In this document: positions 1,706-64,000 of the stretch, piece by piece
Numbering within the stretch: the first letter of the stretch is position 1
Layout: each line of letters starts with the position of its first letter
From: Thermoproteota archaeon
Lineage (GTDB): Archaea > Thermoproteota > Methanomethylicia > Methanomethylicales > Methanomethylicaceae
Assembly (NCBI GenBank): GCA_029887795.1
Contig: JARXPE010000003.1
Span: 28,600 to 92,599 of the forward strand
Direction: 5' to 3'
Length of the DNA stretch: 64,000 nucleotides
Made by a program: the position numbers and the translations under genes
Notes under the pieces: model-generated
Database searches by the model: none
Seen by the model: only the letters and a program-made list of their open reading frames with translations
What the model was told of the DNA's origin: nothing

Positions 1706-3862
1706 ATGACAAAAGAACCTATTATATTGAAGGTTGCAGAGGCAAAGTCACAAAGGGACGTTGGAAGGGGTTTGGCAAGGATAAGCCGCGATGTAATGTC
1801 GCGTCTAGGCTTAAGGCCTGGCGACTTCATATCCATCACAGGACAGCGCACCACGGTGGCGCGTATATGGCCTGCATATGAAGAGGATGAAGGTCAAGAC
1901 ATTATCAGGATCGATGGCATAATCCGCCACAACGCCGGTGCCTCAACAGGCGATGCGGTGAAGGTCTCTGAGGCAGAGATAAAGCCCGCAACAAAGGTGA
2001 TCTTGGCACCCGTAGACCGAATACAGTTCAGTTCCGACTTTAATGAGTACGTGAAACATATGCTTGAGGACAAGCCAGTTAGCAAATGTGATACCGTACC
2101 AATACCCGTACTGGGGGAAGCCTTGAAGCTCGTGGTATCTTCCGTCCAACCGTCTCCTTACGCATATGTGACGCAAGACACAGAGGTGATCATAAAGGAA
2201 GAACCAATTAAGGAGACTGAGATCACTGTTCCACAGGTGACATACGAGGACATCGGCGACCTTGAAGATGCCAAGACCAAGATCAGAGAAATGATAGAGC
2301 TTCCGATGAAACATCCCGAATTATTTAAGCACTTGGGAATAGAGCCCCCTAAGGGCGTAATGTTATATGGTCCTCCGGGCTGCGGAAAGACTCTCCTTGC
2401 AAAGGCTGTTGCCAACGAGTCTGGAGCAAACTTCCTATCAATCAACGGACCAGAGATCATGAGCAAGTTCTATGGAGAGTCAGAGAGTAGACTACGGGAG
2501 ATCTTTGAGGAGGCAGAGAAGTCCGCCCCAAGCATCATTTTCATAGACGAGATCGACTCGATCGCTCCCAAGAGAGAGGAGGTTACAGGGGAAGTAGAAC
2601 GGCGTGTTGTCGCTCAACTTCTCACACTCATGGACGGCTTGAAATCGAGGGGCCAAGTGGTGGTCATTGCGGCGACAAACAGACCCGACGCTGTCGACCC
2701 TGCCCTGAGGAGACCTGGAAGGTTCGACAGAGAGATCTCAATATCTATGCCAGACAAAAAGGCACGGCGCGAGATTCTTCAGGTTCATGTCAGGGGGATG
2801 CCCCTTGAGGAAGACGTAAACATCGACGAAATCGCAGAACTCACACATGGATTTAGCGGTGCTGACCTCGCAGCCCTCGCCAGAGAAGCGGCCATGCGCG
2901 CCCTCAGGCGCTTCTTGCCCAAGATCGACCTAGAGAAGAAAACAATACCTGCAAACATACTCAAGACGCTAAAGGTAAACAGGTCGGACTTCTACGAGGC
3001 ACTAAAGGAGATAACACCATCGGCACTGCGAGAGGTTTACATCGAAGTCCCAGAAGTCCACTGGGATGACGTCGGAGGTCTTGAGGACGTGAAGAAGCAA
3101 CTCAGGGAGATGGTGGAGCTTCCAATAAAGCACCCAGAGCTATTCGAGCAGATGGGCATAACTCCGCCTAAGGGGATACTCCTCTACGGTCCGCCAGGTA
3201 CAGGTAAGACTCTACTGGCAAAGGCTGTGGCCACCGAGAGTTCTGCGAACTTCATAAGCGTAAAGGGTCCTGAGGTCCTCAGCAAATGGGTGGGCGAATC
3301 AGAGAAGGCAATAAGGGAGATCTTCAAGAAGGCTAGACAGGCATCACCTTGCATTATATTCTTTGACGAGATAGATTCAATTGCACCCGTGAGGGGCGCC
3401 AGGTATGACTCTGGTGTGACTGAGCGCATCGTAAACCAGCTATTATCCGAGATGGATGGGCTCATGTCTCTGAAGGGTGTAGTCGTGATCGCCGCCACCA
3501 ACAGACCTGACATACTAGATCCTGCTCTATTGCGACCAGGTAGATTCGATAGAACTGTCTACATACCACTTCCAGATAAAAAAGCCAGAGAGGAGATCTT
3601 CAAGGTACACACCAAAAAGATGCCGCTGGCAGAGGATGTCAACCTCTCGGTACTTGCAGAGAAGACTGAGGGTTACACTGGTGCCGACATAGAAGCCGTA
3701 TGCAGGGAAGCCGCGCTTAATGCCCTCAGGGAGGAGATGAAACCTAAGAAAGTCGAGATGCGCCACTTCGAAGCTGCCATCAAGACAGTCCCAAAAACAA
3801 TTTCGACCGGCGACCTGAAAAGATACGAAGACATGAAGACCTTAAGTAAGATGTTCAGCTGA
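1706..3862 (+). CDS. cdc48: CDC48/VCP-like AAA+ ATPase (N-domain plus two AAA cassettes)
   Basis: Two Walker A motifs (GPPGCGKT and GPPGTGKT) and two DEID Walker B motifs; the 722-aa architecture is typical of archaeal CDC48. Start placed at the ATG at 1706 behind a GGAAGGTG ribosome-binding site; the track's GTG at 1694 is the alternative. Confidence 0.9.
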
Positions 3863-3946: not shown

Positions 3947-5488
3947 CTATGCCCTTCTTTTTCTGTAGATCCTGTTTAAGCTCTCCATCAGCGCATTTAC
4001 CGAAGCCATCACAATGTCTCCCCCGACTCCTATGCCCATTGCAGTCCTTCCCTCTCTATCCTCCACTGTGACCTCTACGGAGCATAAAGAGTCTGTCCCT
4101 CCTGAGATCGCTTCTAGCTTGTAGTTCAACAACCTTATCTCCTCCCCCAGTGCGCTTTGTATAGCCTTTGCAACAGCATCAACGGGTCCTGTCCCCACTC
4201 CGGCAGCGATCTTCTTCACGTTGTCTATGGTGATCTGAACTGAAGCGGTTGGTGTTATTTTGTTGCCTGTAATTATCAGTGCTTCCTCCAGCTTGGCTAC
4301 CCTCTCAGACTCGGGCACACTTCCGAGAACACCCTCGACTACAGCCACAACGTCGTCCTCGATTATCTTCTTTTTATGCACAGCCAGGCTCCTTACTCTC
4401 TCCACCACTTCCTTTATCTGATCTTCAGTAAGATTGAACTTCTCCTTAACGAATGATGCGACAGCATGCTTTCCTGTATGTTTGCCCATTACTATCCTCC
4501 TGCGCTGGCCGACCATCTCTGGGGTGAGGGGCTCATAACTCTCCGCCTTCGCCAGGACTCCATGAACATGGATTCCTGCCTCATGGGCAAAGGCATTGTC
4601 TCCCACAATTGGGAAATTTGGCATCAGCTTTATCATGCTATACTTCTCAACAAGCCTAGAAGTCTCCTTCAAGAGATTAAGCCTTATGCCCGTCTTCACG
4701 TGGTACATAGCGGTCAGCGCCGCTACGGTCTGCTCCACGCTCGCGTTGCCGCCTCTCTCCCCTAGTCCGTTGACCGTGGTGTGAACCTGCGCCGCCCCTG
4801 CCTTTACCCCTGCCAAAGTATTTGCCACTGCCATGCCAAAGTCATTATGACAGTGCACCGATATGGGCTTCTTTAATTCCTTTTTAAGTGTGGATATGAG
4901 GTGGTACATGGCCTCGGGCTCCATGACACCCACAGTATCGGGCACGTTATGTATATCGGCACCATGCTCTTCTACGCTCTTGTAAAATTTTATCAGCCTC
5001 TCCACCGGGGTTCTTGTGGCATCCTCGCAGGAAAACTCACACTCAAGCCCGTGAGCCTTCACGTATTCTGTCGCCGCTATGGCCTGTTCCAATGCCTTGC
5101 TCTCGTCCATTCTTAACTTGTATTTCAAATGTGTGTCTGAGGTTGCTATAAATATGTGAACCCTATCAACATTAGCCTTAATGCAAGCATCAATGTCTGC
5201 CGTAACACACCTTGCGAGTCCGCAGACTTTTGCCTTCAAACCACTCTCTTTTATCTTTTTTACCGTCTCGGTCTCCTCTTCTGAATTGACTGGGAATCCT
5301 CCCTCTATGACATCAACACCAAGCTCATCAAGTTTCTTGGCGATCTCCACTTTTTCATCTGGTGTGAAGCAAACTCCAGGAGTTTGCTCCCCGTCCCGGA
5401 GAGTTGTATCGAATACATAAACTCTTTCCGGAAATTTTGCCCTCTCCCTTATAGGTCTGATAAGGTCACTGACAAAGACCCCTTCCAT
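3947..5488 (-). CDS. 2-isopropylmalate / (R)-citramalate / homocitrate synthase family (LeuA/CimA) with C-terminal regulatory domain
   Basis: FDTTLRDGEQ motif and HxH(N)D metal ligands (HCHNDFGMAVANTLAGVKAGA); 513 aa with a LeuA-dimer-like C-terminus. Confidence 0.8.
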   Translation of the reverse strand: MEGVFVSDLIRPIRERAKFPERVYVFDTTLRDGEQTPGVCFTPDEKVEIAKKLDELGVDVIEGGFPVNSEEETETVKKIKESGLKAKVCGLARCVTADIDACIKANVDRVHIFIATSDTHLKYKLRMDESKALEQAIAATEYVKAHGLECEFSCEDATRTPVERLIKFYKSVEEHGADIHNVPDTVGVMEPEAMYHLISTLKKELKKPISVHCHNDFGMAVANTLAGVKAGAAQVHTTVNGLGERGGNASVEQTVAALTAMYHVKTGIRLNLLKETSRLVEKYSMIKLMPNFPIVGDNAFAHEAGIHVHGVLAKAESYEPLTPEMVGQRRRIVMGKHTGKHAVASFVKEKFNLTEDQIKEVVERVRSLAVHKKKIIEDDVVAVVEGVLGSVPESERVAKLEEALIITGNKITPTASVQITIDNVKKIAAGVGTGPVDAVAKAIQSALGEEIRLLNYKLEAISGGTDSLCSVEVTVEDREGRTAMGIGVGGDIVMASVNALMESLNRIYRKRRA

Positions 5489-16707: not shown

Positions 16708-18042
16708 ATGCCAAAATATCCGGACAAAGTGAACTTGTACGACGACCGCGGAAAACTTTTTGAGACAAACGTTCCAGTTGAGGCTCTGAGCCCACTGAAA
16801 AACACTGCTATACAAAAAATCATCGCTTACGTAAAGCAATGCGTTGCGGTTAACTTGGAAGGTGTGGAAAAGGCGCTAGCTACAGGAGAAGTCGGCGGAA
16901 AATGGTGCATCATTAGAGGTAGATCTTTGAAACTCGATCTGGTAAAGAACGCAGGCAGCGTGGCGGACTCTTTGAAGAAGTGCTTGCAAGTAGATCCCGA
17001 TGACGACACAGAAGTAAAGGTTCTAAAGGGTGGAAAGCACCTCCTCGTAAAGGTTCCAGCAAAGAGGTTAAACGCTGGAGTTGAGTACACTACCGGAGCA
17101 ACAGCAGTGGCTGCTGCCCTCTGCTGCACAATAATTGAGAACTTTAATGTGAACATATGGGATGCAGACCTAGTACACGCTGCCGTCTGGGGAAGGTATC
17201 CGCAGACCATGGAGATGCTGGGTGGAAATGTGTCTTCACTATTGGCAGTGCCACAACAAAATGAGGGTATGGGCTACGCCCTTAGGAACATACCATGTGC
17301 ACACATCGCTCTCATCGCAAAGAAGAACGCTATGAATGCTGCCGCCCTCTCATCGATCTTGGAACAGACTGCGATGTTCGAGATGGGTGATGCCATTGGT
17401 AGCTTCGAGAGGTTCCACCTCTTGGGTCTAGCCTACCAGGGATTGAATGCTGACAACATAGTCTACGACCTTGTGAAAGAGAATGCAAAAACTGGAACAC
17501 TCGGAGATGTTGTCATTTCAACAGTGAAGAGAGCCCTATCGGATGGTGTCATCAAACCCTTAAAGAAGACACCGTCTGGATACACGCTCTACACCACAAG
17601 CGATCTCAATAAGTGGAATGCCTATGCTGCTGCAGGTCTATTGGCTGGAACAATGATCACTTGCGGTGCTGCCAGATCTATGCAACACGCTCCATCAGTC
17701 TTCATATACTTTAACGACCTTTTGGAGAGGGAGACTGGACTTCCAGGTGTGGACTTTGGTAGAGTCACAGGTACAGGCGTGGAAATGTCATTCTTCAGTC
17801 ACTCAATCTATGGTGGAGGAAATCCTGCCGTATTCCACGGAAACCACATAGTGACTCGACACAGCAAGGGCTTCACCATTCCATGCGTTGCTGCTGCCGT
17901 GGCGCTTGATGCTGGAACCACCATATACACCCCAGAGAGGATCAGCGGCGTAGTTGGTGAGGTCCTGAGCGAGGTACCTGAGCTTAGAGAATCTTTACGC
18001 TATGTGAATGAGGCCGCGGTCTCAATAAAAGGAGGAGTCTAA
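16708..18042 (+). CDS. mcrB: Methyl-coenzyme M reductase beta subunit
   Basis: [15 protein letters not shown]..., ...ALRNI..., [49 protein letters not shown] are hallmark McrB blocks. Start at the ATG at 16708 behind a ribosome-binding site; the track start at 16642 is an over-extension. Confidence 0.95.
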
Positions 18043-18044
18043 AA

Positions 18045-18821
18045 ATGGTAGAATATAAGCCCCAATATTACCCTGGAGGATCAAATGTAGCCGCCAATAG
18101 GCGGAAATACATCGATCCCAACTACAAGCTAAGAAAGCTAAGAACAATAAGCGACGATGACTTAGTTCGATTAATGGGTCATAGGGTCCCAGGCGAGGCT
18201 TACAAGAGCGTCCACCCGCCACTGGAAGAACTTGGCGAGCCTACATGCCCAATCAGGGAGATTGTAGAACCTACGCCCGGGGCAAAAGCCGGTGACAGGA
18301 TTCGTTACATACAATTCACAGACTCTGTATACTTTGCCCCATTGACTCCCTACATGAGAGCTTGGATGGGTCATATGCGATACCGTGGAGTGGACATTGG
18401 TGTTCTATCGGGGCGTGTCCCTCTTGAGGCCAGAGAGCGAGATCTTGAGAAGGTTGCTAAGGAACTCGTTGAGACCGAGATCTTCGATCCGGCGAGGGTC
18501 GGGATCAGGGGTGCCACAGTTCACGGTCATGCTTTGAGGCTCGACGAGAACGGTCTCATGTTCGATGCCCTGCGCAGGTTCCAGTATGATAAGAACAAGG
18601 GCGAGGTCGTCTATGTTAAGGACCAGGTTGGAGTTCCGCTCGACAGACCGATATACGTAGGAAAACCCACCCCTGAAGAGGAGCTGAGAAAAATAACCAG
18701 CCAGTTCAGAGTTGACGGAGAAGCCTTCAGGAATGACAAGGAACTGATTGAGTTCGTTCAGAGGATTCACATGCTCCGAACGGAAGCAGGTTTCGATCCT
18801 AACAAGGTGAAAGATCTATAG
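18045..18821 (+). CDS. mcrG: Methyl-coenzyme M reductase gamma subunit
   Basis: [55 protein letters not shown] are McrG blocks; starts 2 nt after the mcrB stop. Confidence 0.95.
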
Positions 18822-18832
18822 GAGGAATTGTA

Positions 18833-20503
18833 ATGAGCGAAGAGAAGAAGATGTTCCTAGAAGCGCTCAGGAGAAAGTTCAAGGAGTCTCCTGAAGAGAA
18901 ACAAACAAAATTCTACATATATGACGGATGGAAGCAGTCAAAGAGAAAGAGGGAGTTCGTAGAAGCTGCTCAGAAAATAGCCAAAGAGAGGACCGTCCCC
19001 TTCTACAACCCTGACCTCCACCTCGGCGGCATCCCATTAGGGCAGAGAGTCTTGATGCCTTACCGTCTATCGGGTACAGACATCTATTGCGAGGGTGATG
19101 ACCTTCACTTCATAAACAACGCCGCCATGCAGCAGATGTGGCATGACATAAGGCGGACTGTGATCGTCGGACTCGATGCTGCGCACACGGTCCTACAGAA
19201 GAGGCTCGGCAAAGAGGTCACCCCTGAAACCGTGAACCACTATCTAGAGGTACTTAATCACGCGCTGCCTGGTGCGGCTGTAGTTCAGGAGCACATGGTC
19301 GAGACACACCCTGGATTGGTCTCTGACAGCTATGTCAAGGTATTCACAGGAGACGACGAGCTCGCGGACGAGATCGACGATAGATTTCTTATCGACATAA
19401 ACAAGGAGTTCCCTGCAGAGCACGCGGCACAGCTAAAGGCTGCCATCGGAAAACGCATTTACCAGGTATGCCGCATGCCAACACTCGTGGCGATGACCTG
19501 CGACGGAGGTACAATGTCAAGATGGGCGGCTATGCAGATCTCAATGTCAATGATAAATGCATACAAACTTATGGCTGGAGAGGCTGCGGTGGGAGAATTC
19601 GCCTTCGCAGCAAAGCACGCAGAAGTCATAGAGATGGGCACTCTTATGCCTTGGAGGCGAGCAAGAGGTCCCAACGAGCCCGGAGGAATTCCATTGGGCT
19701 ATATGGCGGATATCTGCCAGGCCTCGAGGGTCAAGCCCGAGGATCCAGTCTGGGTCGCCTTGGAAGCCATTTCCATGGCAGCTGTCCTATACGACCAGTT
19801 CTGGTTCGGAAGCTACATGTCTGGTGGCGTCGGGTTCACGCAATATGCAACTTGCACCTACACTGACAACATCCTTGATGACTTCTGCTATTATGGCGCC
19901 GAGTACGTTAAAAAGAAGTACGGCGGTTTCGCAAAAGTCAAGCCGAGCTGGGATGTGATAAACGATGTTGCCACGGAGGTCACATTATACGGTCTGGAGC
20001 AATATGAAAGGTACCCTGCGCTGATGGAGACTCACTTCGGAGGATCCCAGAGGGCTGCCGTAGTAGCAGCTGGTGCTGGCGTCTCCGTGTCACTGGTGAC
20101 CGGTCATTCCACTGCAGGAATCAACGGTTGGTACCTCAGCCAGCTACTCCACAAGGAAGAGATGGGTCGACTTGGCTTCTACGGCTACGACTGCCAGGAC
20201 CAATGCGGATCAGCCAACAGCTTCTCATGGAGGAGCGACGAAGGTCTACCCTTCAACCTGAGGGGAGTGAACTACCCCAACTATGCTCTCAATGTCGGAC
20301 ACCAGTCAGCATACTGCGGTATAGTCTCCGCCGCTCACGGTGGGAGAGGCGACGCTTGGACAACAAACCCGTTGATAAAAGTTGCCTTTGCAGATAAGGA
20401 TCTGAAATTTGACTTCACGCACCCGAGGCTATGCTTCGGAAAAGGCGCTCTCAGGGAGTTCATGCCAGCTGGCGAGCGCGATCTAATAATCCCAAGCCAC
20501 TAA
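18833..20503 (+). CDS. mcrA: Methyl-coenzyme M reductase alpha subunit
   Basis: [73 protein letters not shown] are McrA blocks. GGAGG ribosome-binding site precedes the ATG. Confidence 0.95.
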
Positions 20504-44898: not shown

Positions 44899-44917
44899 AG
44901 GTTTAGGGGCGATTTGC

Positions 44918-45559
44918 TTGGACGAAGCTATTGGAAGGAGCTCTCAGATCGTGGATTGTCGGGAAGCTCAGGGCATAGGGGAGGGTGGCGGACTCGCCCA
45001 ACGTGGGACGATTTCGGAATCGGAACGCTTCGACGTGGTCGCGGTTGCAATGTCTCCTTCTAAAAGACATATCACAAAACCCATCTGTGAAATAACTTAC
45101 GGTCTAAGGGAACAGGGCATCAGAACGAGCGTCTTAGTTCTCGAGTCTGGATCAGGGGTGCCTTCCGACTCGCCCTATGGAGGCGCACCAGGTGGAACAA
45201 TGGCTGGAATCAACGAAAAAGAGATACTCCAGATAAGAAGATACAAACTCGCCCTATTCCACTTGGGCGGCATTGGGGGACATGTTGTCTATAAAGCTAA
45301 AACCTTTCTGCGATATGTCGACATCCCCACCATTATAGTCTGTGAGGCACCTGTAGACTATGAGGATTTTGCCAAGGTTGGGATCATCACCCGACTTGTA
45401 CGCCCGCCTCCCGATAAGGTCGAATGCCTAGGAACGATTGTCGATATTGTGACTGGCGTTGTGAGGGGTGTCAGCGCACCGCGCGACAAACTCAACGAAA
45501 TAGTGACAAAAGTAAAATTTTGGCTTAGCAAATTTGATGAGGAACATAAAAAAAGGTGA
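44918..45559 (+). CDS. mcrC: Methyl-coenzyme M reductase operon protein C
   Basis: VDCREAQGIGEGGGLAQRGT, VAVAMSPSKRHITKPICEITYGLRE, LFHLGGIGGHVVYKAKTFLR, IIVCEAPVDYEDFAKVGI are canonical McrC blocks. Confidence 0.85.
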   Translation: MDEAIGRSSQIVDCREAQGIGEGGGLAQRGTISESERFDVVAVAMSPSKRHITKPICEITYGLREQGIRTSVLVLESGSGVPSDSPYGGAPGGTMAGINEKEILQIRRYKLALFHLGGIGGHVVYKAKTFLRYVDIPTIIVCEAPVDYEDFAKVGIITRLVRPPPDKVECLGTIVDIVTGVVRGVSAPRDKLNEIVTKVKFWLSKFDEEHKKR

Positions 45560-45566
45560 AATTAAA

Positions 45567-57848: not shown

Positions 57849-59477
57849 TTATGCGATTTGCTTCAATAATATTGCTTCTTGCAAACTGTTAATTCCTCCC
57901 ACCTCTTTTAAAATACTTATTCCTTCTAGAATTCTATTCCTGTTTCTCTTACTCAATATATCAAAAACCTCCCTTGCCTCAAAAAGTATTACGGATAAAA
58001 CCTCCCAACTTCCAAAAACTGCCTCCGTAATCTCTCTGTTGAGACCAACATCTTTAAACTCTTCAGCTTTTTTGAAACCTTTCAAAACGATTGGCGGCTC
58101 AATGAGATAGAGTTTATCATTTTTAAAAGTTACAAAATAAGGGATGTATAGAAGTTCTACGTCATTACCCAATTCTACGCCTTTCCAAATATAGTTTTTT
58201 AATACTTTCAACTCTGATTCCAACGATTTTATGGTGCTTTCTGAAAGGTCTTTGAATTTTTTGTACTCGAATTTCAACCTGTCCTCTCTTGCACGCAAAT
58301 TACAAAGAGCTTTTTCACGCTCAGCCAACAGGGAATTCAATTCATTGATCATCACTCCTCTTTTTATCACAAGCTCCCTCCTTACCTTTCTCAGTTCAAG
58401 ATCTTCTTTGGATGGTACGATTCTTTCCTCCTCCTTGAGCCTCGATATTTTATTTTGCACCTCCTCAACTCTCTTGAGGATTCTCTCCCTCTGTTCCTGA
58501 AGTTGTAAAAGAGTTTCCTTGTATGTACTTTCATTTTTTTTGTTTACTTCAATCGATCTCTCACAATCTTCAAGATCTTTAATGATGCTTCTAATTTTGT
58601 CAAATTTCTCGCTACCCTCTTCGACCCTCTTCTTTTCAATGGAAAGTTTTTCTTTTTTAGCCTCGATCCTTGCAATTTTTTCTCTTATTTCATTAACCTC
58701 TTTCTTTATTTTTTCCATTTTGCTGTCTACTTCATTGAGTTCGTCCATTAAATTTTTAACCAAATTTTCAAGACTCTTTCGTTCGTTCTTTAGCGAATCC
58801 TTATGTTTATGGAATTCCTCCCTGATCTTTTTCAGTTCCTCGTTCTCACTTGCAGTCAGTAGACCCTCGATCTGAATATTTTTATCCGTAATTTTTTTCT
58901 CGTATTCCTTGTTTATTCTCATACACTCTTCTTGAATTTTTTTAAGGTCTTCCTTTAACTTCAACCCTTGGCTCTCTAACGATGACCTTACATTATCTAA
59001 ATACTCCTCCAAAGATTCATAAATTCTCACGACTTCTTTTGCAATAGAAATTGCCTCCTCTCTGGTCAGGATATGTGGCGCAGCGTATCCATCTTGAATC
59101 TTTTCTTCGACCGTGCTTCCCATCCACCTTAAAAGTTTTTCATTTCCGATCAAGGGTAAATTGTAGATTTTTGAAGAGAGAACTCCATACTCCTCGTGAA
59201 GTTCTATAACCTCTCCGATCCTCACACCATGAACTCCCATACCATCGATGGGAATGACATATTTCCCCTCGCGAACAAGGTAAATTGGATAATAGACCTT
59301 ATACAGGGAATCAACTCTTTCCAACCTATCCTCGCTTATAAATCCCACTAGGCTCCTCCATCTTTTCCCTAGGATTCCCATGGCTTCTAGTAGCGCTAGT
59401 ACGTCCCCAGCTTGGGGGGGAAGTGCCCTCAAATTTCCGTCTTTTTCAACACTGAATCCAAAATTCATGAGCCTCAA
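57849..59477 (-). CDS. Large coiled-coil protein, uncharacterised
   Basis: 542 aa; a central stretch of about 330 aa is heptad-rich Glu/Lys/Leu coiled coil, flanked by globular ends. Confidence 0.45.
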   Translation of the reverse strand: MRLMNFGFSVEKDGNLRALPPQAGDVLALLEAMGILGKRWRSLVGFISEDRLERVDSLYKVYYPIYLVREGKYVIPIDGMGVHGVRIGEVIELHEEYGVLSSKIYNLPLIGNEKLLRWMGSTVEEKIQDGYAAPHILTREEAISIAKEVVRIYESLEEYLDNVRSSLESQGLKLKEDLKKIQEECMRINKEYEKKITDKNIQIEGLLTASENEELKKIREEFHKHKDSLKNERKSLENLVKNLMDELNEVDSKMEKIKKEVNEIREKIARIEAKKEKLSIEKKRVEEGSEKFDKIRSIIKDLEDCERSIEVNKKNESTYKETLLQLQEQRERILKRVEEVQNKISRLKEEERIVPSKEDLELRKVRRELVIKRGVMINELNSLLAEREKALCNLRAREDRLKFEYKKFKDLSESTIKSLESELKVLKNYIWKGVELGNDVELLYIPYFVTFKNDKLYLIEPPIVLKGFKKAEEFKDVGLNREITEAVFGSWEVLSVILFEAREVFDILSKRNRNRILEGISILKEVGGINSLQEAILLKQIA

Positions 59478-59758: not shown

Positions 59759-62700
59759 ATGCCTAAAATAGCCTTTTATAAAAAAATTACATCTTTGATT
59801 TTAATCTCAGTAATTCTTATGAGCAATCTTCAAGTCGCTCTAGCCTACTCATTCTCAGAGAATGAGCTTCCCCATAGGCCTATTTATCCTTTATATAAAG
59901 AAGTAGATACGGAAAATATTGTAACGCCCAGTTATATTGCCCAGACTGGCTTCTCCCCAGAGGATCTCTCCCCCATTACTGTGGGTGGTCATTACGATCC
60001 AAAATCTATTCTTAATGAAATAACACCCACTCCACTTAACATATACCTTTATGTGAGGAATAACTTTAACTTTGAACCATACTACGGGTTTTTAAAGGGA
60101 CCATCTTTAACAAATCTTGACAAATCAGGAAATGATTTAGATCTTGCTGTCCTTTTGGTTTATCTTTTAAGATCTGCATCATATCCTGCAAAATACGTCT
60201 ACGGGACGATCACTCTTCCATCAGACAAAGTCATTAATTGGCTTGGAGTAAATACCACGGATGCTGCACTCTCATTATTAAAGGCTGCAGGGATCCCTTC
60301 TAGATTGACTGTTACTAATGAAGGTATCGCATCGATAGAACTTGAGCATTTTTGGGTGGAGGTCTATTACGAAGGTAAATGGTACGCGTTGGATCCAAGC
60401 TTCAAGGAGTATGTTTATTACCAGCCCGAGTCTATCGTGGAAGATTGGCTAAACGGGTCTAAAATAGTAAAAGACCTAATTGATAACACAAACTTCGATG
60501 GTTATTACATAAAAATGGCTCAGCCCAGCATCTTTACCTCCCCTGATCTAAACTCTTCAAACATAATTTCAGCCGTAAATGGCACCACAGGCTTCATAAT
60601 ATCGAAGGGAGCGAACGAGATCTCGCTCGGGGATGTCGAGACTTTTAATAAAGTCTACTCCGGTATAAAGTTGGATGCTTTAGGAGGTAAGGAGATAGTT
60701 CCTGAGATAACTGACAAACTGCCCGCTTCGCTACCATTCACGGTTGTGGCACACCTCAAAGAATACTCCGAAGTCCCTTCAGAGATGGTTTTTAACATCA
60801 CAATTGAGTCTGGGTCTCTAAAATACACACGCAGTATTTCTGAGCTTGGAGGAAGAAGGGTAACATTGACTTTCCTGCCCACTACGGCTGCCGATCTAGC
60901 TCTACGTAATAAAACTGATCTCTCAGTTGGTCCAATCTCCAATATTAACGTTACACCGGCTCTCCTTATAGATGGTGAGTTGGTAGCCAATGGATCTTCT
61001 ATGCTTCTCGGCACCGATACCTCATTAAATGTAACTATAGTCGGTCCAACCACCTCGTACTCAAAGTCAGTAACCGTAGTCTCGGGCGGCATATATGTGG
61101 TTGTGCTTGATCATAATAGAATATTCGAGTCACTGCTCCGCCTCAGGCAGGACCGCCTCTCTTTGACTAACAAACTCATGGAGTACGGCATCAGGGAGTT
61201 ATCGTTAGACGAAGTAACTGGGGAATCGTTTTACATCACTGGTCTGTCTTTCTGGAAGCATTGGATGGACTATGTGGATCACCTTGGCTCAAAAATCAAA
61301 GTTGCGTATGTTAGGTATCCTTCTGTACTCCTCGTGGGTAGTGGTATAGAGGTCGTCAAATCGGGGGACACGCCAATCAGTCTTAAGACTGTAGGTGTAT
61401 ACTTCAATATACTGTTTAATCTCATCACCCCGGTCTCTCACACTAATGATAGAAATGCCGAGCTGGACTTTCTTGCAAGAACAGCGGTCAGATCTTCCAA
61501 GCTCGAGGCATCAGTGATCGAGGAATTTCTTGAGCTGCCCTCCTTCTCTACCCAGACCATATTCGAGCATGCAGCTGCCGAAGGGATCAGGATCGTGATG
61601 ATAAATTCTTCAAATGTTGAAGTCTTGGACTCGCTTGCAATAAACGCGTCTGATAAGGTCTTTATAAGGGAAGCTGTCAACTCAGGTTTAACTGTTCTCG
61701 TTCCTGAGAGAAATATTCTCATCGGTGACTGGAATGGTACTGGCTACTACATAACAAATACGACTAGCGGCGCATGTTCTTACATGTTAACTGGTGGAAT
61801 ACAAGGCGGTTGGGGAAGGGGTTGGTCTGCGTGGATACAGGACGCGCTTGGAACGATAGTATCTGGAATGCTGAAGACGTTCGACAAGGCCAGTAATTGG
61901 GCCAGAGTTACACCAATTGTTGGAAGGATATTAAGTGCAGCTGATACTATTATTGGAAGCACAATAGATCTATATTACTCCTCCCCTTGCGACTTTTGGA
62001 CAAAGATGACTGCCGCACTTGCCAAGACCGCTACAACAATAGTGACGAATGGTCTCTTGGCATATGTCGAGGTTCAAACAGGCGGAACAACAACAGGAAT
62101 AATCGAAGCAGCCGCCGCTGAAGGTGCCGTGGGCTTCACTGTGAACGAGATAGTTAATGCCATTCAAGACTATATGATCTCGGAGCTTGGGCTCGACAAG
62201 CCTAATACCTGTGCAGATCCGGAGCTAGAGGTTTATCCTGTGTATATAGATCTGGGCAAGGTAAAGTATGGTGATGTGGTGACGGGAAAACTTATGGTCA
62301 GAAATAAGAACTACCGTGATATGAATTACGAAGTTCAGAATCTGATCCCCTTGGTATTCGAAATTAAAACGGTAGACCCTGCCCTCAGGTTCTCACCATC
62401 TCGTGGATCCGCCACTAGCTCTCAAATCATTGATATAACCTTAGATACTAAAAAAATCCCTCTGTCTGAGGTTCCAGAAAAAGGCGAAAAAACATTTTTC
62501 AGTGAGGTTGAGATCACAAGCAACAGCAAGTATGTGAAAACTTGGCGAGCTAAAATAGCTTATAAACTGACCACAGAAGAGGGAGCTTTGGTAGTTGTTA
62601 ATCCTTCTTCCTTAACTAAAACCTATATACAGGGCAAGGTCTTCTTTGATACTCTGAAATTTAGAATAAACTCTCTCGGCAAAGCGACTGTATACATCTC

Positions 62701-64000
62701 TCCAGGGAAAATTCCAATTGGTAGCGGTTATCTTCAAGTGGATCTAACCAAAGTAACTTTTGATGACAAAGGTTCTAAAGATATTCAAGTCTTGGTTTCA
62801 GTACCCTCAGGGACTGGAACGTATACAGGAACTTTTAACATCCTGGCAGAGTATACCCAAGGAAATGAAGTTAAAAAAACTACGATTCCGCTTTTAATCA
62901 CTATCGTTGTTGAGGCACAGCCAAAAGACAAAGATCCTAGGCCGCCCAACCCTCCAGATCAGAGTAATGACAAGCCACAACCACCTGGAGGGGATCATCC
63001 TGATGATACTTTCGATGTTTCTACCTCTTTCTTGGAACAGAAAACAATGGGCTACTCCCTTATAGCTATGGCTGTGAAGAAAAGTATGCCTTACGCAGAA
63101 TCGCTTCAGACAATATCCAGGACCGCTAAGCTCCTGTCAACTTTAGCCATAGCAGAGAACATGAGTCTATATGTTACGTCGAGCAGAGAGTATGCAACCG
63201 CCTATGCTTTGGCATCGGTAAATAGCAACGAAGTACTTAAGACCCTTTCTGATGCCCCGAATGTTGTTATCATGGATAGGGGTTTCTCTGATGGTGCTAA
63301 AGTTTTGCTTTCTGATTTAGGTATACCATTCTCTGTAATTCCTTCAGCACAGGTTGTGGTGGGCTCTTGGGTGCCCGAAGACCTAGCAAGGATCCATCCA
63401 ATTATGATACTGCCATCTGGATCTCTCTTTGGAATATCCTCGCAAATATTCAAGGCGAAGCTAGAGAAATATGTTGAAGCTGGGGGCACAATAATTGTCT
63501 TCTCACAGCAATACGGCTCGGACTTCAATGTACTCCCTGGTAGCCCCAATGGCTTCGGTTGGAGTGAGGACCAGATGTGCTATGGAGATGCTGCCTATAT
63601 AGACACATTAATGCCGATTGTCTCGAGCCAATATTATGTCACCATCTCCGAGCCAATCGATGGATATTTCACCTCTTACCCGTCCGAAACTACGGTTATT
63701 CTAAGGAGGACGAAGAATGACTTCCCAGCTATGATTCTCTATCCCTTCGGAAAAGGGTACGTTATAGCCACCACGATGTACACTGACTGGTCTCACACTA
63801 AGGGAGGTGCTATGACATCCGGGATGCACCTCGTGCGGGATGCTATAGCTTGGGCTCTATCAAATAAGCAGAAGCTTCAGGAGTTACCAATCTATAGATC
63901 GTCAAGTGTCGAAGTGACTGTGAAAAACACATCGCCGGAGATCTCCTCTAGCGTTGCACTCTCATTAATAAGTCCAAGCGGTGATATTGTTAAGCGCCAA
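59759..64000 (+). CDS. Very large secreted or cell-surface protein (>1,400 aa, partial at the 3' end) with a transglutaminase-like domain whose catalytic Cys is replaced by Asp
   Basis: Open frame from the ATG at 59759 to the window end; all minus-strand ORFs inside look antisense. Signal peptide MPKIAFYKKITSLILISVILMSNLQVALA. TGase-like core GNDLDLAVLLVYLLRSASYPAKYVYG ... EHFWVEVYYEGKWYALDPS. Pro-rich linker PKDKDPRPPNPPDQSNDKPQPPGG near 62.9 kb. Confidence 0.6.
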   Translation, partial: MPKIAFYKKITSLILISVILMSNLQVALAYSFSENELPHRPIYPLYKEVDTENIVTPSYIAQTGFSPEDLSPITVGGHYDPKSILNEITPTPLNIYLYVRNNFNFEPYYGFLKGPSLTNLDKSGNDLDLAVLLVYLLRSASYPAKYVYGTITLPSDKVINWLGVNTTDAALSLLKAAGIPSRLTVTNEGIASIELEHFWVEVYYEGKWYALDPSFKEYVYYQPESIVEDWLNGSKIVKDLIDNTNFDGYYIKMAQPSIFTSPDLNSSNIISAVNGTTGFIISKGANEISLGDVETFNKVYSGIKLDALGGKEIVPEITDKLPASLPFTVVAHLKEYSEVPSEMVFNITIESGSLKYTRSISELGGRRVTLTFLPTTAADLALRNKTDLSVGPISNINVTPALLIDGELVANGSSMLLGTDTSLNVTIVGPTTSYSKSVTVVSGGIYVVVLDHNRIFESLLRLRQDRLSLTNKLMEYGIRELSLDEVTGESFYITGLSFWKHWMDYVDHLGSKIKVAYVRYPSVLLVGSGIEVVKSGDTPISLKTVGVYFNILFNLITPVSHTNDRNAELDFLARTAVRSSKLEASVIEEFLELPSFSTQTIFEHAAAEGIRIVMINSSNVEVLDSLAINASDKVFIREAVNSGLTVLVPERNILIGDWNGTGYYITNTTSGACSYMLTGGIQGGWGRGWSAWIQDALGTIVSGMLKTFDKASNWARVTPIVGRILSAADTIIGSTIDLYYSSPCDFWTKMTAALAKTATTIVTNGLLAYVEVQTGGTTTGIIEAAAAEGAVGFTVNEIVNAIQDYMISELGLDKPNTCADPELEVYPVYIDLGKVKYGDVVTGKLMVRNKNYRDMNYEVQNLIPLVFEIKTVDPALRFSPSRGSATSSQIIDITLDTKKIPLSEVPEKGEKTFFSEVEITSNSKYVKTWRAKIAYKLTTEEGALVVVNPSSLTKTYIQGKVFFDTLKFRINSLGKATVYISPGKIPIGSGYLQVDLTKVTFDDKGSKDIQVLVSVPSGTGTYTGTFNILAEYTQGNEVKKTTIPLLITIVVEAQPKDKDPRPPNPPDQSNDKPQPPGGDHPDDTFDVSTSFLEQKTMGYSLIAMAVKKSMPYAESLQTISRTAKLLSTLAIAENMSLYVTSSREYATAYALASVNSNEVLKTLSDAPNVVIMDRGFSDGAKVLLSDLGIPFSVIPSAQVVVGSWVPEDLARIHPIMILPSGSLFGISSQIFKAKLEKYVEAGGTIIVFSQQYGSDFNVLPGSPNGFGWSEDQMCYGDAAYIDTLMPIVSSQYYVTISEPIDGYFTSYPSETTVILRRTKNDFPAMILYPFGKGYVIATTMYTDWSHTKGGAMTSGMHLVRDAIAWALSNKQKLQELPIYRSSSVEVTVKNTSPEISSSVALSLISPSGDIVKRQ

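What the first reader, a model, noticed from the sequence alone, without database searches (positions are those of the whole stretch)
59759..64000. Giant secreted protein with a transglutaminase-like domain carrying Asp in place of the nucleophile Cys
The open frame runs from 59759 past the window end (>1,400 aa) and begins with a clear signal peptide. Residues around 100-200 align point-for-point with the transglutaminase-like papain-fold core (G-x-C-x-x-F-A...L-R-x-x-G-I-P-A-R...G...H-x-W-x-E-V-Y...D-P-T). The Cys position reads Asp (GNDLDLAVLL...YPAKYVYG), while the His (EHFWVEVY) and Asp (ALDPS) are retained. This predicts a non-catalytic or chemically altered domain, such as a binding or adhesin module or an Asp-based hydrolase. 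Downstream are a Pro-rich PxxP linker and further beta-rich domains, which fits a surface or S-layer-associated protein.
Basis: seen in the sequence. Interest (0 to 1): 0.55.

Follow-up and report, generated by a model that had tools for sequence, protein, structure and literature searches.

The report
Giant archaeal surface protein, cysteine-less transglutaminase head
This is the start of a gene for a giant secreted surface protein of a methanogenic archaeon; its first domain has the transglutaminase fold but lacks the catalytic cysteine, a domain type already described in bacterial toxin proteins and seen here in a different, archaeal setting.

Summary

The substitution is a family trait. 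Among 214 relatives that column is D/A/S/P/G/T and never Cys. Asp128, His197 and Asp212 are about 96-100% conserved. The core is the first part of a ~620-aa module (aa 66-685). In bacteria this module sits upstream of NlpC/P60, M23, HINT, Ntox16 or RHS-toxin domains, which matches the "inactive transglutaminase" module of polymorphic toxins (Zhang et al. 2012).

The gene comes from a Methanomethylicaceae archaeon. Collinear orthologues in Thermococcus and Thermoplasmata are 4,140-4,565 aa. They carry Ig/MG/CARDB/PKD arrays and a GATase1-like domain, some have a C-terminal TM anchor, and none has a toxin or an immunity gene.

Best reading: a giant adhesin-like surface protein whose Cys-less module is a binding head, not a thiol enzyme. 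An Asp126 nucleophile is unlikely because that column varies. A non-thiol or metal site built on the conserved Asp/His/Asp is not excluded. Verdict: new variant of a known kind, moderate interest.

The parts
59759..64000 (+). 5' part (1,414 codons) of a giant gene; the reading frame runs off the window
   Evidence: No stop codon. Copies 99.6-99.9% identical in MAG contigs L001 and L002 extend the protein to at least 1,662 aa. Collinear orthologues are 4,140-4,565 aa.
59759..59845 (+). Signal peptide, aa 1-29, predicted cleavage after A-L-A
   Evidence: Read from the sequence. Orthologues have the same layout: signal peptide followed by an 'LPH' motif. No signal-peptide predictor was available.
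59954..61813 (+). Conserved ~620-aa family module (aa 66-685): Cys-less TGase-like core plus ~400 aa of beta-sandwich, helical-hairpin and alpha/beta subdomains
   Evidence: Homologue coverage ends at aa ~685. The AF2 model is one compact unit with pTM 0.84. Only the TGase core has PDB matches. The remainder has no Pfam hit.
60011..60433 (+). Transglutaminase-like (papain-fold) core, aa 85-225
60134..60136 (+). Asp126, in the column of the canonical nucleophile Cys
   Evidence: The profile-to-3ISR alignment gives GndfDqA against GVCRDFA. The codon was checked. It lies at the N-terminus of the helix at aa 126-139 in the model. The family column reads D135/A60/S8/P7/G1/T1 with no Cys.
60140..60142 (+). 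Asp128, invariant in the family
   Evidence: 212 of 212. It aligns with the Asp of the C-R-D motif in 3ISR.
60347..60349 (+). His197 (EHFWVE motif), the retained triad His
   Evidence: 203 of 212 conserved. The codon was checked. It lies on the beta-strand at aa 189-204 of the model.
60392..60394 (+). Asp212 (LDPS motif), the retained triad Asp
   Evidence: 210 of 211 conserved. The Pfam match ends at profile position 108 of 108 at residue 213. It lies at the end of the hairpin partner strand.
61814..62212 (+). Gly/Ala/Thr-rich amphipathic helical segment (aa 686-818) containing Cys744 and Cys818
   Evidence: Maximum Kyte-Doolittle value (19-residue window) is 1.19, so it is not TM-like here. 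Cys818 is conserved in 5 of 6 giants. The equivalent position in 38 of 91 bacterial members holds TM-like segments.
62216..62914 (+). Two Ig-like beta-sandwich domains (aa 820-1052)
   Evidence: Weak Pfam hits only: HYDIN/VesB-like Ig E=0.0058 and NCBIfam choice-of-anchor T E=0.011. Collinear with the orthologues.
62915..63010 (+). Pro-rich linker ending in the conserved motif PGGDHPDD (aa 1053-1084)
   Evidence: Translation. The motif is present in all six giants examined and in the consensus of alignment A3.
63011..63913 (+). Four-helix bundle plus a class-I glutamine-amidotransferase-like (ThuA/IFT52-like) alpha/beta domain (aa 1085-1385)
63914..64000 (+). Start of the array of CARDB/MG/Ig-like domains that continues beyond the window
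   Evidence: The extension from L001 gives a weak DUF11/Ig hit. Orthologues carry MG2, A2M_BRD, CARDB and PKD domains downstream.

Best explanation
The window ends inside a gene for a giant, secreted, probably N-glycosylated cell-surface protein of a Methanomethylicaceae (Verstraetearchaeota) methanogen. At least 1,662 aa are known, and complete orthologues are 4,100-4,600 aa. After the signal peptide comes a ~620-aa module whose first ~140 residues have the transglutaminase/papain fold without the nucleophile Cys. This column is Asp126 here and is never Cys in 214 relatives. The same module heads bacterial polymorphic toxins and cell-wall hydrolase effectors, where it was named 'inactive transglutaminase'.

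Shown: the domain cannot carry out thiol-based transamidation or proteolysis.

Inferred: the former active-site pocket (invariant Asp128, His197, Asp212) is kept as a ligand-binding site, probably for a peptide or an envelope component. The module would then act as a binding or docking head at the N-terminal end of a long stalk of Ig/MG/CARDB/PKD-like domains, which also includes a GATase1/GIFT-like domain. The other end is tethered to the cell, by a C-terminal TM helix in the Thermoplasmata orthologues. On this reading the protein is an adhesin-like surface-interaction protein, not an enzyme or a toxin.
For: The ORF, signal peptide and TGase-like core are confirmed. D126 lies in the Cys column. 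No Cys occurs in that column in 214 members, and the column varies D/A/S/P/G/T in all architecture classes, so it cannot be an essential nucleophile. D128, H197 and D212 are about 96-100% conserved, so the pocket is under selection. The module always lies N-terminal to variable extracellular parts: NlpC/P60, M23, PT-HINT, Ntox16 or DUF6531+RHS in bacteria. Zhang et al. 2012 describe such inactive TGase domains directly after a signal peptide and propose peptide binding or surface anchoring. The archaeal orthologues are collinear over 1,640-4,000 aa. They are built of MG2, A2M_BRD, CARDB, CarboxypepD_reg, PPC and PKD domains. P0140 and P0150 have a C-terminal TM helix plus a cytoplasmic tail. 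Sequon density is 3.8 times that of the other ORFs in the window and similar to the two secreted solute-binding proteins. No toxin or immunity genes lie nearby, and there is no conserved neighbourhood. The organism was identified.
Against: No ligand is known and no binding was tested. The near-absolute retention of His197, Asp212 and Asp128 after the loss of Cys is unusual for a merely 'dead' domain and would also fit residual catalysis or metal binding. The C-terminus of this organism's own gene is unknown, so its tethering is inferred from orthologues, and the Thermococcus orthologues lack a C-terminal TM helix. In bacterial toxins the module is thought to sit next to the producer's surface, not at a distal tip, so 'head' versus 'foot' is unresolved.
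Confidence: 0.6

Rival explanations
1. The core is a chemically altered but active enzyme. The conserved Asp128/His197/Asp212, helped by Asp126 in the archaeal giants, would form a non-thiol catalytic site. This could be acid-base or metal-dependent hydrolysis or transfer, acting on envelope proteins or glycans of the producer or of a partner cell.
Against: The nucleophile column is Ala, Pro, Gly, Ser or Thr in 36% of members, with no compensating residue identified. To my knowledge no papain-fold or TGase-fold enzyme with a carboxylate nucleophile has been described. The published assessment of such domains is 'inactive'. The His and Asp motifs also contribute to the fold core.
Confidence: 0.17
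2. The module is a self-anchor (a foot, not a head). It would bind the producer's own envelope, such as the S-layer, membrane surface or a secretion partner, and hold the N-terminal end of the giant protein at the cell. This is what was proposed for the bacterial polymorphic toxins.
For: Zhang et al. 2012 propose surface anchoring by peptide binding. In 38 of 91 bacterial members, TM-like segments follow the module directly, which places it at the membrane surface. Thermococcus orthologues have hydrophobic segments at aa ~700-790 and no C-terminal TM helix.
Against: In the query the equivalent segment is not TM-like, with a maximum KD of 1.19. Thermoplasmata orthologues already have a C-terminal TM anchor, which makes a second anchor unnecessary. 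RHS-type members have no hydrophobic segment after the module.
Confidence: 0.15
3. The gene encodes an archaeal polymorphic toxin, with an unseen C-terminal toxin domain delivered to competitors, as in the bacterial relatives.
For: The N-terminal module is homologous to that of bacterial RHS, HINT and Ntox16 toxins. The C-terminus of this organism's gene is unknown, and every assembly breaks inside the gene.
Against: Complete orthologues end in a PKD domain plus a helical tail (Thermococcus) or a TM helix plus a cytoplasmic tail (Thermoplasmata and P0150), with no toxin domain. No RHS or HINT domain was found. Neighbouring genes are housekeeping genes with no immunity cassettes. Thermococci copies are collinear end to end at 41% identity, not C-terminally polymorphic.
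Confidence: 0.05

Closest known systems
'Inactive transglutaminase' N-terminal domains of bacterial polymorphic toxins (Zhang, de Souza, Anantharaman, Iyer & Aravind 2012, Biol Direct 7:18; PMC3482391)
   Same: A TGase-like domain directly after a signal peptide, with triad residues lost (here the Cys), heading a long secreted multidomain protein. The query module is demonstrably homologous to modules in RHS, DUF6531, PT-HINT and Ntox16 proteins. The proposed role is binding or anchoring.
   Different: The archaeal giants have no RHS repeats, no HINT domain, no C-terminal toxin and no immunity gene. Instead they have >3,000 aa of Ig/MG/CARDB/PKD domains, a GATase1-like domain and, in some, a C-terminal TM anchor. 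The passages of the paper that I read do not mention the ~400-aa extension conserved with the core, or the strict retention of D128, H197 and D212. That their alignment (Fig. 5D, not held) covers exactly this clade is an inference from the description.
Active microbial transglutaminase-like cysteine enzymes (Pfam PF01841: 3ISR putative protease, TgpA, LapG, CPR-C4, pseudomurein endoisopeptidases PeiW/PeiP)
   Different: The nucleophile Cys is absent in the query and in all 214 family members. The core is embedded in a larger 620-aa module.
Non-catalytic TGase-fold proteins of eukaryotes (erythrocyte band 4.2, Rad4/XPC, Cyk3)
   Different: These are unrelated lineages and intracellular proteins. 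From general knowledge, not tested here, those proteins have usually lost more than one triad residue, whereas this family keeps His and Asp almost perfectly.
TG-type adhesin-like proteins of Methanobacteriales (Group III ALPs; PMC11532034)
   Same: Archaeal (methanogen) surface proteins that combine a TGase-like domain with Ig-like 'archaeal big domains' and are thought to mediate adhesion.
   Different: In those proteins the TGase-like domain is C-terminal and next to pseudomurein-binding repeats. The proteins are short and anchored by an N-terminal TM helix. Here the domain is N-terminal, there are no pseudomurein-binding repeats, and the protein is giant.

Membership tests
Transglutaminase-like superfamily (Pfam PF01841, papain-like fold) | Significant match to the family profile | tested here: met
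   E=8.2e-14, 52.2 bits against a gathering cut-off of 23, aa 93-213.
Transglutaminase-like superfamily (Pfam PF01841, papain-like fold) | TGase/papain-like three-dimensional fold | tested here: met
Transglutaminase-like superfamily, catalytically competent members | Nucleophile Cys in the G-x-C-x-x-F/x-A motif at the helix N-terminus | tested here: not met
   The column holds Asp126: GNDLDLA against GVCRDFA of 3ISR. No Cys in 214 relatives.
Transglutaminase-like superfamily, catalytically competent members | Triad His and Asp | tested here: met
   EH197FWVE and LD212PS are present. The Pfam match runs to the last profile position. They lie on hairpin strands in the model. Conservation is 96% and 99.5%. 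No residue-level superposition on a solved enzyme was possible.
Inactive-transglutaminase N-terminal module of polymorphic toxins (Zhang et al. 2012) | TGase-like domain directly after a signal peptide or TM helix, with at least one triad residue lost | tested here: met
   Signal peptide at aa 1-29, module from aa ~66, Cys lost. Description from the paper.
Inactive-transglutaminase N-terminal module of polymorphic toxins (Zhang et al. 2012) | Sequence homology to modules of RHS/toxin-bearing proteins | tested here: met
   Hits to PF05593, PF20148, PF07591 and PF15523 proteins over aa ~66-685, with E down to 1e-53 for RHS members.
Polymorphic toxin systems | RHS or other filamentous repeats followed by a variable C-terminal toxin domain and an adjacent immunity gene | tested here: not met
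   None in the 1,662 aa available. None in the complete orthologues or their neighbourhoods. The C-terminus of this organism's own gene could not be tested.
TG-type adhesin-like proteins of Methanobacteriales | C-terminal TGase-like domain adjacent to pseudomurein-binding repeats, with an N-terminal TM anchor | tested here: not met
   The domain is N-terminal and there is no pseudomurein-binding repeat hit. Family description from the paper.
Class I glutamine amidotransferase-like fold (downstream domain, aa 1085-1385) | GATase1/ThuA-like alpha/beta fold | tested here: met
Class I glutamine amidotransferase-like fold (downstream domain, aa 1085-1385) | Catalytic Cys at the nucleophile elbow after strand 4 | tested here: inconclusive
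   The segment after strand 4 reads F-S-Q-Q-Y-G, with Gln1250 invariant and no Cys. A near-invariant Cys1274 lies 24 residues downstream in 'EDQxC'. No superposition was possible.

The most novel reading that the evidence does not exclude
The Cys-less core may not be dead. The invariant Asp128-His197-Asp212 set, plus Asp126 in the archaeal giants, would form a non-thiol active site, either metal-dependent or carboxylate/His acid-base. As far as I know this would be the first transglutaminase/papain-fold enzyme working without a cysteine. In the archaeal giants it would remodel or cross-link envelope proteins of the producer or of a partner cell, and in bacteria it would prime the delivery of polymorphic toxins.
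Probability: 0.12. Interest if true: 0.75.

Novelty: new variant of a known kind. Interest (0 to 1): 0.36.

Why it matters
Three points make this worth recording:

1. It links a module known only from bacterial polymorphic toxins to a family of 4,000-aa archaeal surface proteins. The family occurs in Methanomethylicia, Thermococcus (including the cultured T. atlanticus) and Thermoplasmata, and databases list its members only as 'hypothetical', 'PKD domain' or 'transglutaminase domain' proteins.

2. The module is a conserved 620-aa unit with an almost invariant Asp/His/Asp pocket despite the loss of Cys. This raises the question of whether 'inactive' is the right label, and it gives defined residues to mutate.

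3. Giant surface proteins are candidates for cell-cell contact in uncultured methanogens, whose syntrophic or attachment biology is poorly known.

The Cys-to-Asp substitution itself is not a new discovery. Cys-less TGase domains heading secreted proteins were reported in 2012.

Tried and rejected
- **Recovering the rest of the gene.** Exact look-ups of the adjacent 542-aa ORF with two alternative starts found nothing. Look-ups through HMG-CoA reductase and the glycosyltransferase found five contigs, but all end inside the gene, the longest at 1,643 called residues. An exact-match scan and a protein scan of metagenome contigs with the distal end of L001 found nothing (one search was a frame error). 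The genome-contig scan missed the source genome because the query reads WYALDPSFK and so fails the scan pattern.
- **Whole-protein searches.** PDB sequence search gave only a spurious chitinase hit with E=0.63. NCBIfam gave nothing meaningful.
- **Other regions against Pfam.** The second half of the module, the hydrophobic segment and the alpha/beta domain gave nothing above noise.
- **Sequence-level alignment of the His and Asp motifs to a solved enzyme.** The profile aligned only the Cys half to 3ISR, even at E up to 10.
- **Conserved gene neighbourhood.** None was found.
- **Neighbour-joining tree of the TGase domain (211 sequences, 146 columns).** The archaeal giants did not resolve as a clade, so I draw no conclusion on the direction of transfer.
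- **A TM hairpin after the module in the query.** Rejected, because the maximum hydropathy is 1.19.
- **Asp126 as an essential nucleophile.** Rejected at the family level, because the column varies.
- **Identity with the Thermococcales hypervariable Ig-protein module (PMC8416519).** Considered and set aside. That paper never mentions a transglutaminase domain, and I did not read it further.
Full report
**1. Checking the observation**

Translation of window 59759-64000 (+) gives 1,414 codons with no stop, starting at an ATG. The ORF tool does not list the frame only because it runs off the window. The N-terminus (MPKIAFYKK-ITSLILISVILMSNLQV-ALA|YS) has the three parts of a signal peptide. The orthologues found later begin in the same way and share the following 'LPH' motif.

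Pfam finds Transglut_core (PF01841) at aa 93-213, with E=8.2e-14 and 52.2 bits against a cut-off of 23. The match reaches the last profile position. NCBIfam and a PDB sequence search of the whole fragment add nothing.

**2. Is Asp really in the Cys column?**

A search of 5.8 billion proteins returned 127 homologues, none above ~31% identity. All cover the N-terminal ~600-700 aa. A MAFFT column analysis showed G124, N125, D128, R138, H197, W199 and D212 to be nearly invariant, and the residue at position 126 was never Cys.

A 21-sequence profile of the domain (A2) matches the solved TGase-like protein 3ISR with E=1.2e-7. The alignment is '...ekaGndfDqasLliaLlRaagiparyvyG' against '...[29 protein letters not shown]'. 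D126 therefore sits in the G-x-C column, and the invariant D128 matches the Asp of C-R-D. The codons were checked.

The His and Asp assignment rests on the Pfam end-to-end match, the motifs, the model topology and conservation. A residue-level sequence alignment of that half to a solved enzyme could not be obtained.

**3. The substitution is a family trait**

The 214 members were pooled from three sources: the homologues, six-frame translations of 78 loci from species-representative genomes, and the giant orthologues.

| Column (query residue) | Residues observed |
|---|---|
| Cys column (D126) | D 135, A 60, S 8, P 7, G 1, T 1; no Cys |
| D128 | 212 of 212 |
| H197 | 203 of 212 |
| D212 | 210 of 211 |

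D and A alternate at the Cys column in every architecture class. The archaeal giants keep Asp. A few members (~14) have a Cys two positions earlier, in the G124 column.

An Asp126 nucleophile is therefore not a family requirement. The rest of the pocket is under strong purifying selection.

**4. The core is part of a 620-aa module**

Homology extends from aa ~66 to ~685. AlphaFold models this stretch as one compact unit, apart from a low-confidence insertion at aa 226-285. Beyond the core, neither Pfam nor the PDB fold searches recognise anything.

In bacteria the module lies 160-400 aa from the N-terminus. It is followed by NlpC/P60 (P0013), M23 (P0028), PT-HINT (P0016), Ntox16 (P0052) or DUF6531+RHS (P0034). 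In 38 of 91 members, all of them non-RHS, TM-like segments follow the module directly.

This is the architecture of polymorphic effectors. Zhang et al. [quoted passage not shown] These sit directly after a signal peptide or TM helix, have lost triad residues, are followed by RHS repeats, and are proposed to anchor the toxin by binding peptides. The family is large, with 504 confirmed loci among GTDB species representatives.

**5. What this particular gene is**

The neighbouring genes are HMG-CoA reductase, the pst operon, mcrC and mcrD. The exact HMG-CoA reductase sequence identifies a Methanomethylicaceae/Verstraetearchaeota MAG. Five public contigs carry the locus and all end inside this gene. 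L001 extends the protein to 1,662 aa counted from M1. The public gene calls start at M21 and so lose the signal peptide.

The closest relatives of the module are archaeal: Thermococci at 35%, plus Methanophagales and Geoglobus. The Thermococci frames stay open for >4,000 aa and align collinearly with the query over aa 1-1,640 at ~31% identity.

An exhaustive search with aa 701-1414 found these full-length orthologues:

| Protein | Length | Source and annotation |
|---|---|---|
| P0128 | 4,140 aa | Thermococcus; its cluster includes the T. atlanticus JCM16138_05750 'hypothetical protein' |
| P0140 | 4,313 aa | Thermoplasmata; 'transglutaminase domain-containing protein' |

All have the same order of parts:
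1. a signal peptide or TM helix;
2. the GND(L/M)D module;
3. a hydrophobic or amphipathic segment;
4. Ig-like domains;
5. a linker ending in PGGDHPDD;
6. an alpha/beta domain;
7. long arrays of MG2, A2M_BRD, CARDB, CarboxypepD_reg, PPC and PKD domains.

P0140 and P0150 end in a TM helix plus a cytoplasmic tail. The Thermococcus proteins end in a helical tail after a PKD domain. There is no RHS, HINT or toxin domain, no immunity-like neighbour and no conserved neighbourhood.

Sequon density in the query is 1.14 per 100 aa against 0.30 for the other ORFs in the window. This fits an extracellular N-glycosylated protein.

**6. The downstream alpha/beta domain (aa 1085-1385)**

**7. Mechanism**

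- **Shown:** the protein is secreted and giant, and it is headed by a TGase-fold module that lacks the thiol nucleophile. Thiol-based transamidation or proteolysis is therefore excluded.
- **Inferred (confidence ~0.6):** the conserved former active-site pocket serves ligand binding. The module would be a docking head on a long Ig-like stalk tethered at the other end, making the protein an adhesin-like surface protein.
- **Rivals:**
  - a non-thiol or metal-dependent enzyme built on D128, H197 and D212 (~0.17);
  - a self-anchor at the producer's own envelope, as proposed for the bacterial toxins (~0.15);
  - an archaeal polymorphic toxin with an unseen toxin tip (~0.05).

The geometry of the pocket could not be measured because model coordinates are not exposed by the tools.

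**8. Comparison with what is known, and novelty**

The fold and motif skeleton are those of PF01841. Membership of the catalytically competent group fails on the Cys. The module belongs to the 'inactive transglutaminase' class of Zhang et al. 2012, but the archaeal proteins fail the defining features of polymorphic toxins (RHS or toxin plus immunity).

The TG-type adhesin-like proteins of Methanobacteriales are an archaeal precedent for TGase-like domains in surface proteins, but with the opposite architecture. I found no paper that describes these archaeal giants.

I rate the finding a new variant of a known kind. The Cys-to-Asp observation is correct, but it re-discovers a known family trait. 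What is new is the archaeal giant context, the 620-aa extent of the module, the strict Asp/His/Asp retention, and the widespread unannotated GATase1-like domain.

Interest is moderate (0.36).

Noticed in passing
window 63011-63913 (aa 1085-1385), with the motif at 62984-63007: A four-helix bundle plus a GATase1/ThuA/IFT52-like alpha/beta domain with no Pfam model. It has 776 relatives (329 at E<=1e-30), mostly inside proteins of 2,000-4,600 aa. It is always preceded by the conserved motif PGGDHPDD. The strand-4 elbow has an invariant Gln instead of Cys, and a near-invariant Cys1274 lies in 'EDQxC'. Its function is unknown.
   Followed up: partly
window 59759-59821; L001 and L002 gene calls: Public MAG annotations start this gene at Met21 (MSNLQVALA...), which removes the signal peptide. 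The upstream ATG at 59759 restores a signal peptide like that of the Thermococcus orthologues.
   Followed up: yes
L001-L005 (public contigs carrying this locus): All five public contigs that carry the locus terminate inside this gene, at between 347 and 1,643 called residues. This suggests a systematic assembly break, from internal repeats or strain variation downstream.
   Followed up: partly
bacterial homologues P0002, P0003, P0016, P0036, P0052 and others, directly after the module: In 38 of 91 bacterial family members the module is followed directly by TM-like hydrophobic segments (Kyte-Doolittle up to 3.0) before the effector domain. None of the RHS-size members has them. The query's equivalent segment (window 61814-62212) is only amphipathic.
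   Followed up: partly
family alignment, column of query Gly124 (window 60128-60130): About 14 of 214 members read C-N-D/A-x-D, so they have a Cys two positions before the canonical nucleophile column. Whether this shifted Cys could act as a nucleophile in those members was not examined.
   Followed up: no
window 16708-20503 (+) and ~44900-45560 (+): Three consecutive ORFs of 444, 258 and 556 aa look like mcrB, mcrG and mcrA, judged from their N-terminal sequences only. mcrC and mcrD lie near 44.9 kb (Pfam MCR_C and MCR_D on the identical public contigs). This fits a methyl-reducing methanogen of the Methanomethylicia.
   Followed up: partly
window 57849-59477 (-): A 542-aa Lys/Glu-rich, probably coiled-coil ORF lies divergently upstream of the giant gene and has no Pfam hit. 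It is not found next to the orthologous giants in Thermococcus or Thermoplasmata, so it is probably not functionally linked.
   Followed up: partly
P0140 (aa ~4157-4313) and P0150 (aa ~4339-4565): The Thermoplasmata-type orthologues end in a TM helix followed by a cytoplasmic tail. In P0140 the tail holds a Cys-rich zinc-ribbon-like motif (CIICGK...CGKC...CPNCG), and in P0150 it is long and acidic. This hints at a link from the giant ectodomain to the cell interior.
   Followed up: no
L006 / P0129 aa ~2550-3100: The Thermococcus orthologues contain a ~550-aa W/Y/G-rich, beta-propeller-like region between the Ig arrays. The Thermoplasmata orthologues have CarboxypepD_reg and PPC-like repeats there instead. 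The stalk composition therefore differs between lineages.
   Followed up: no
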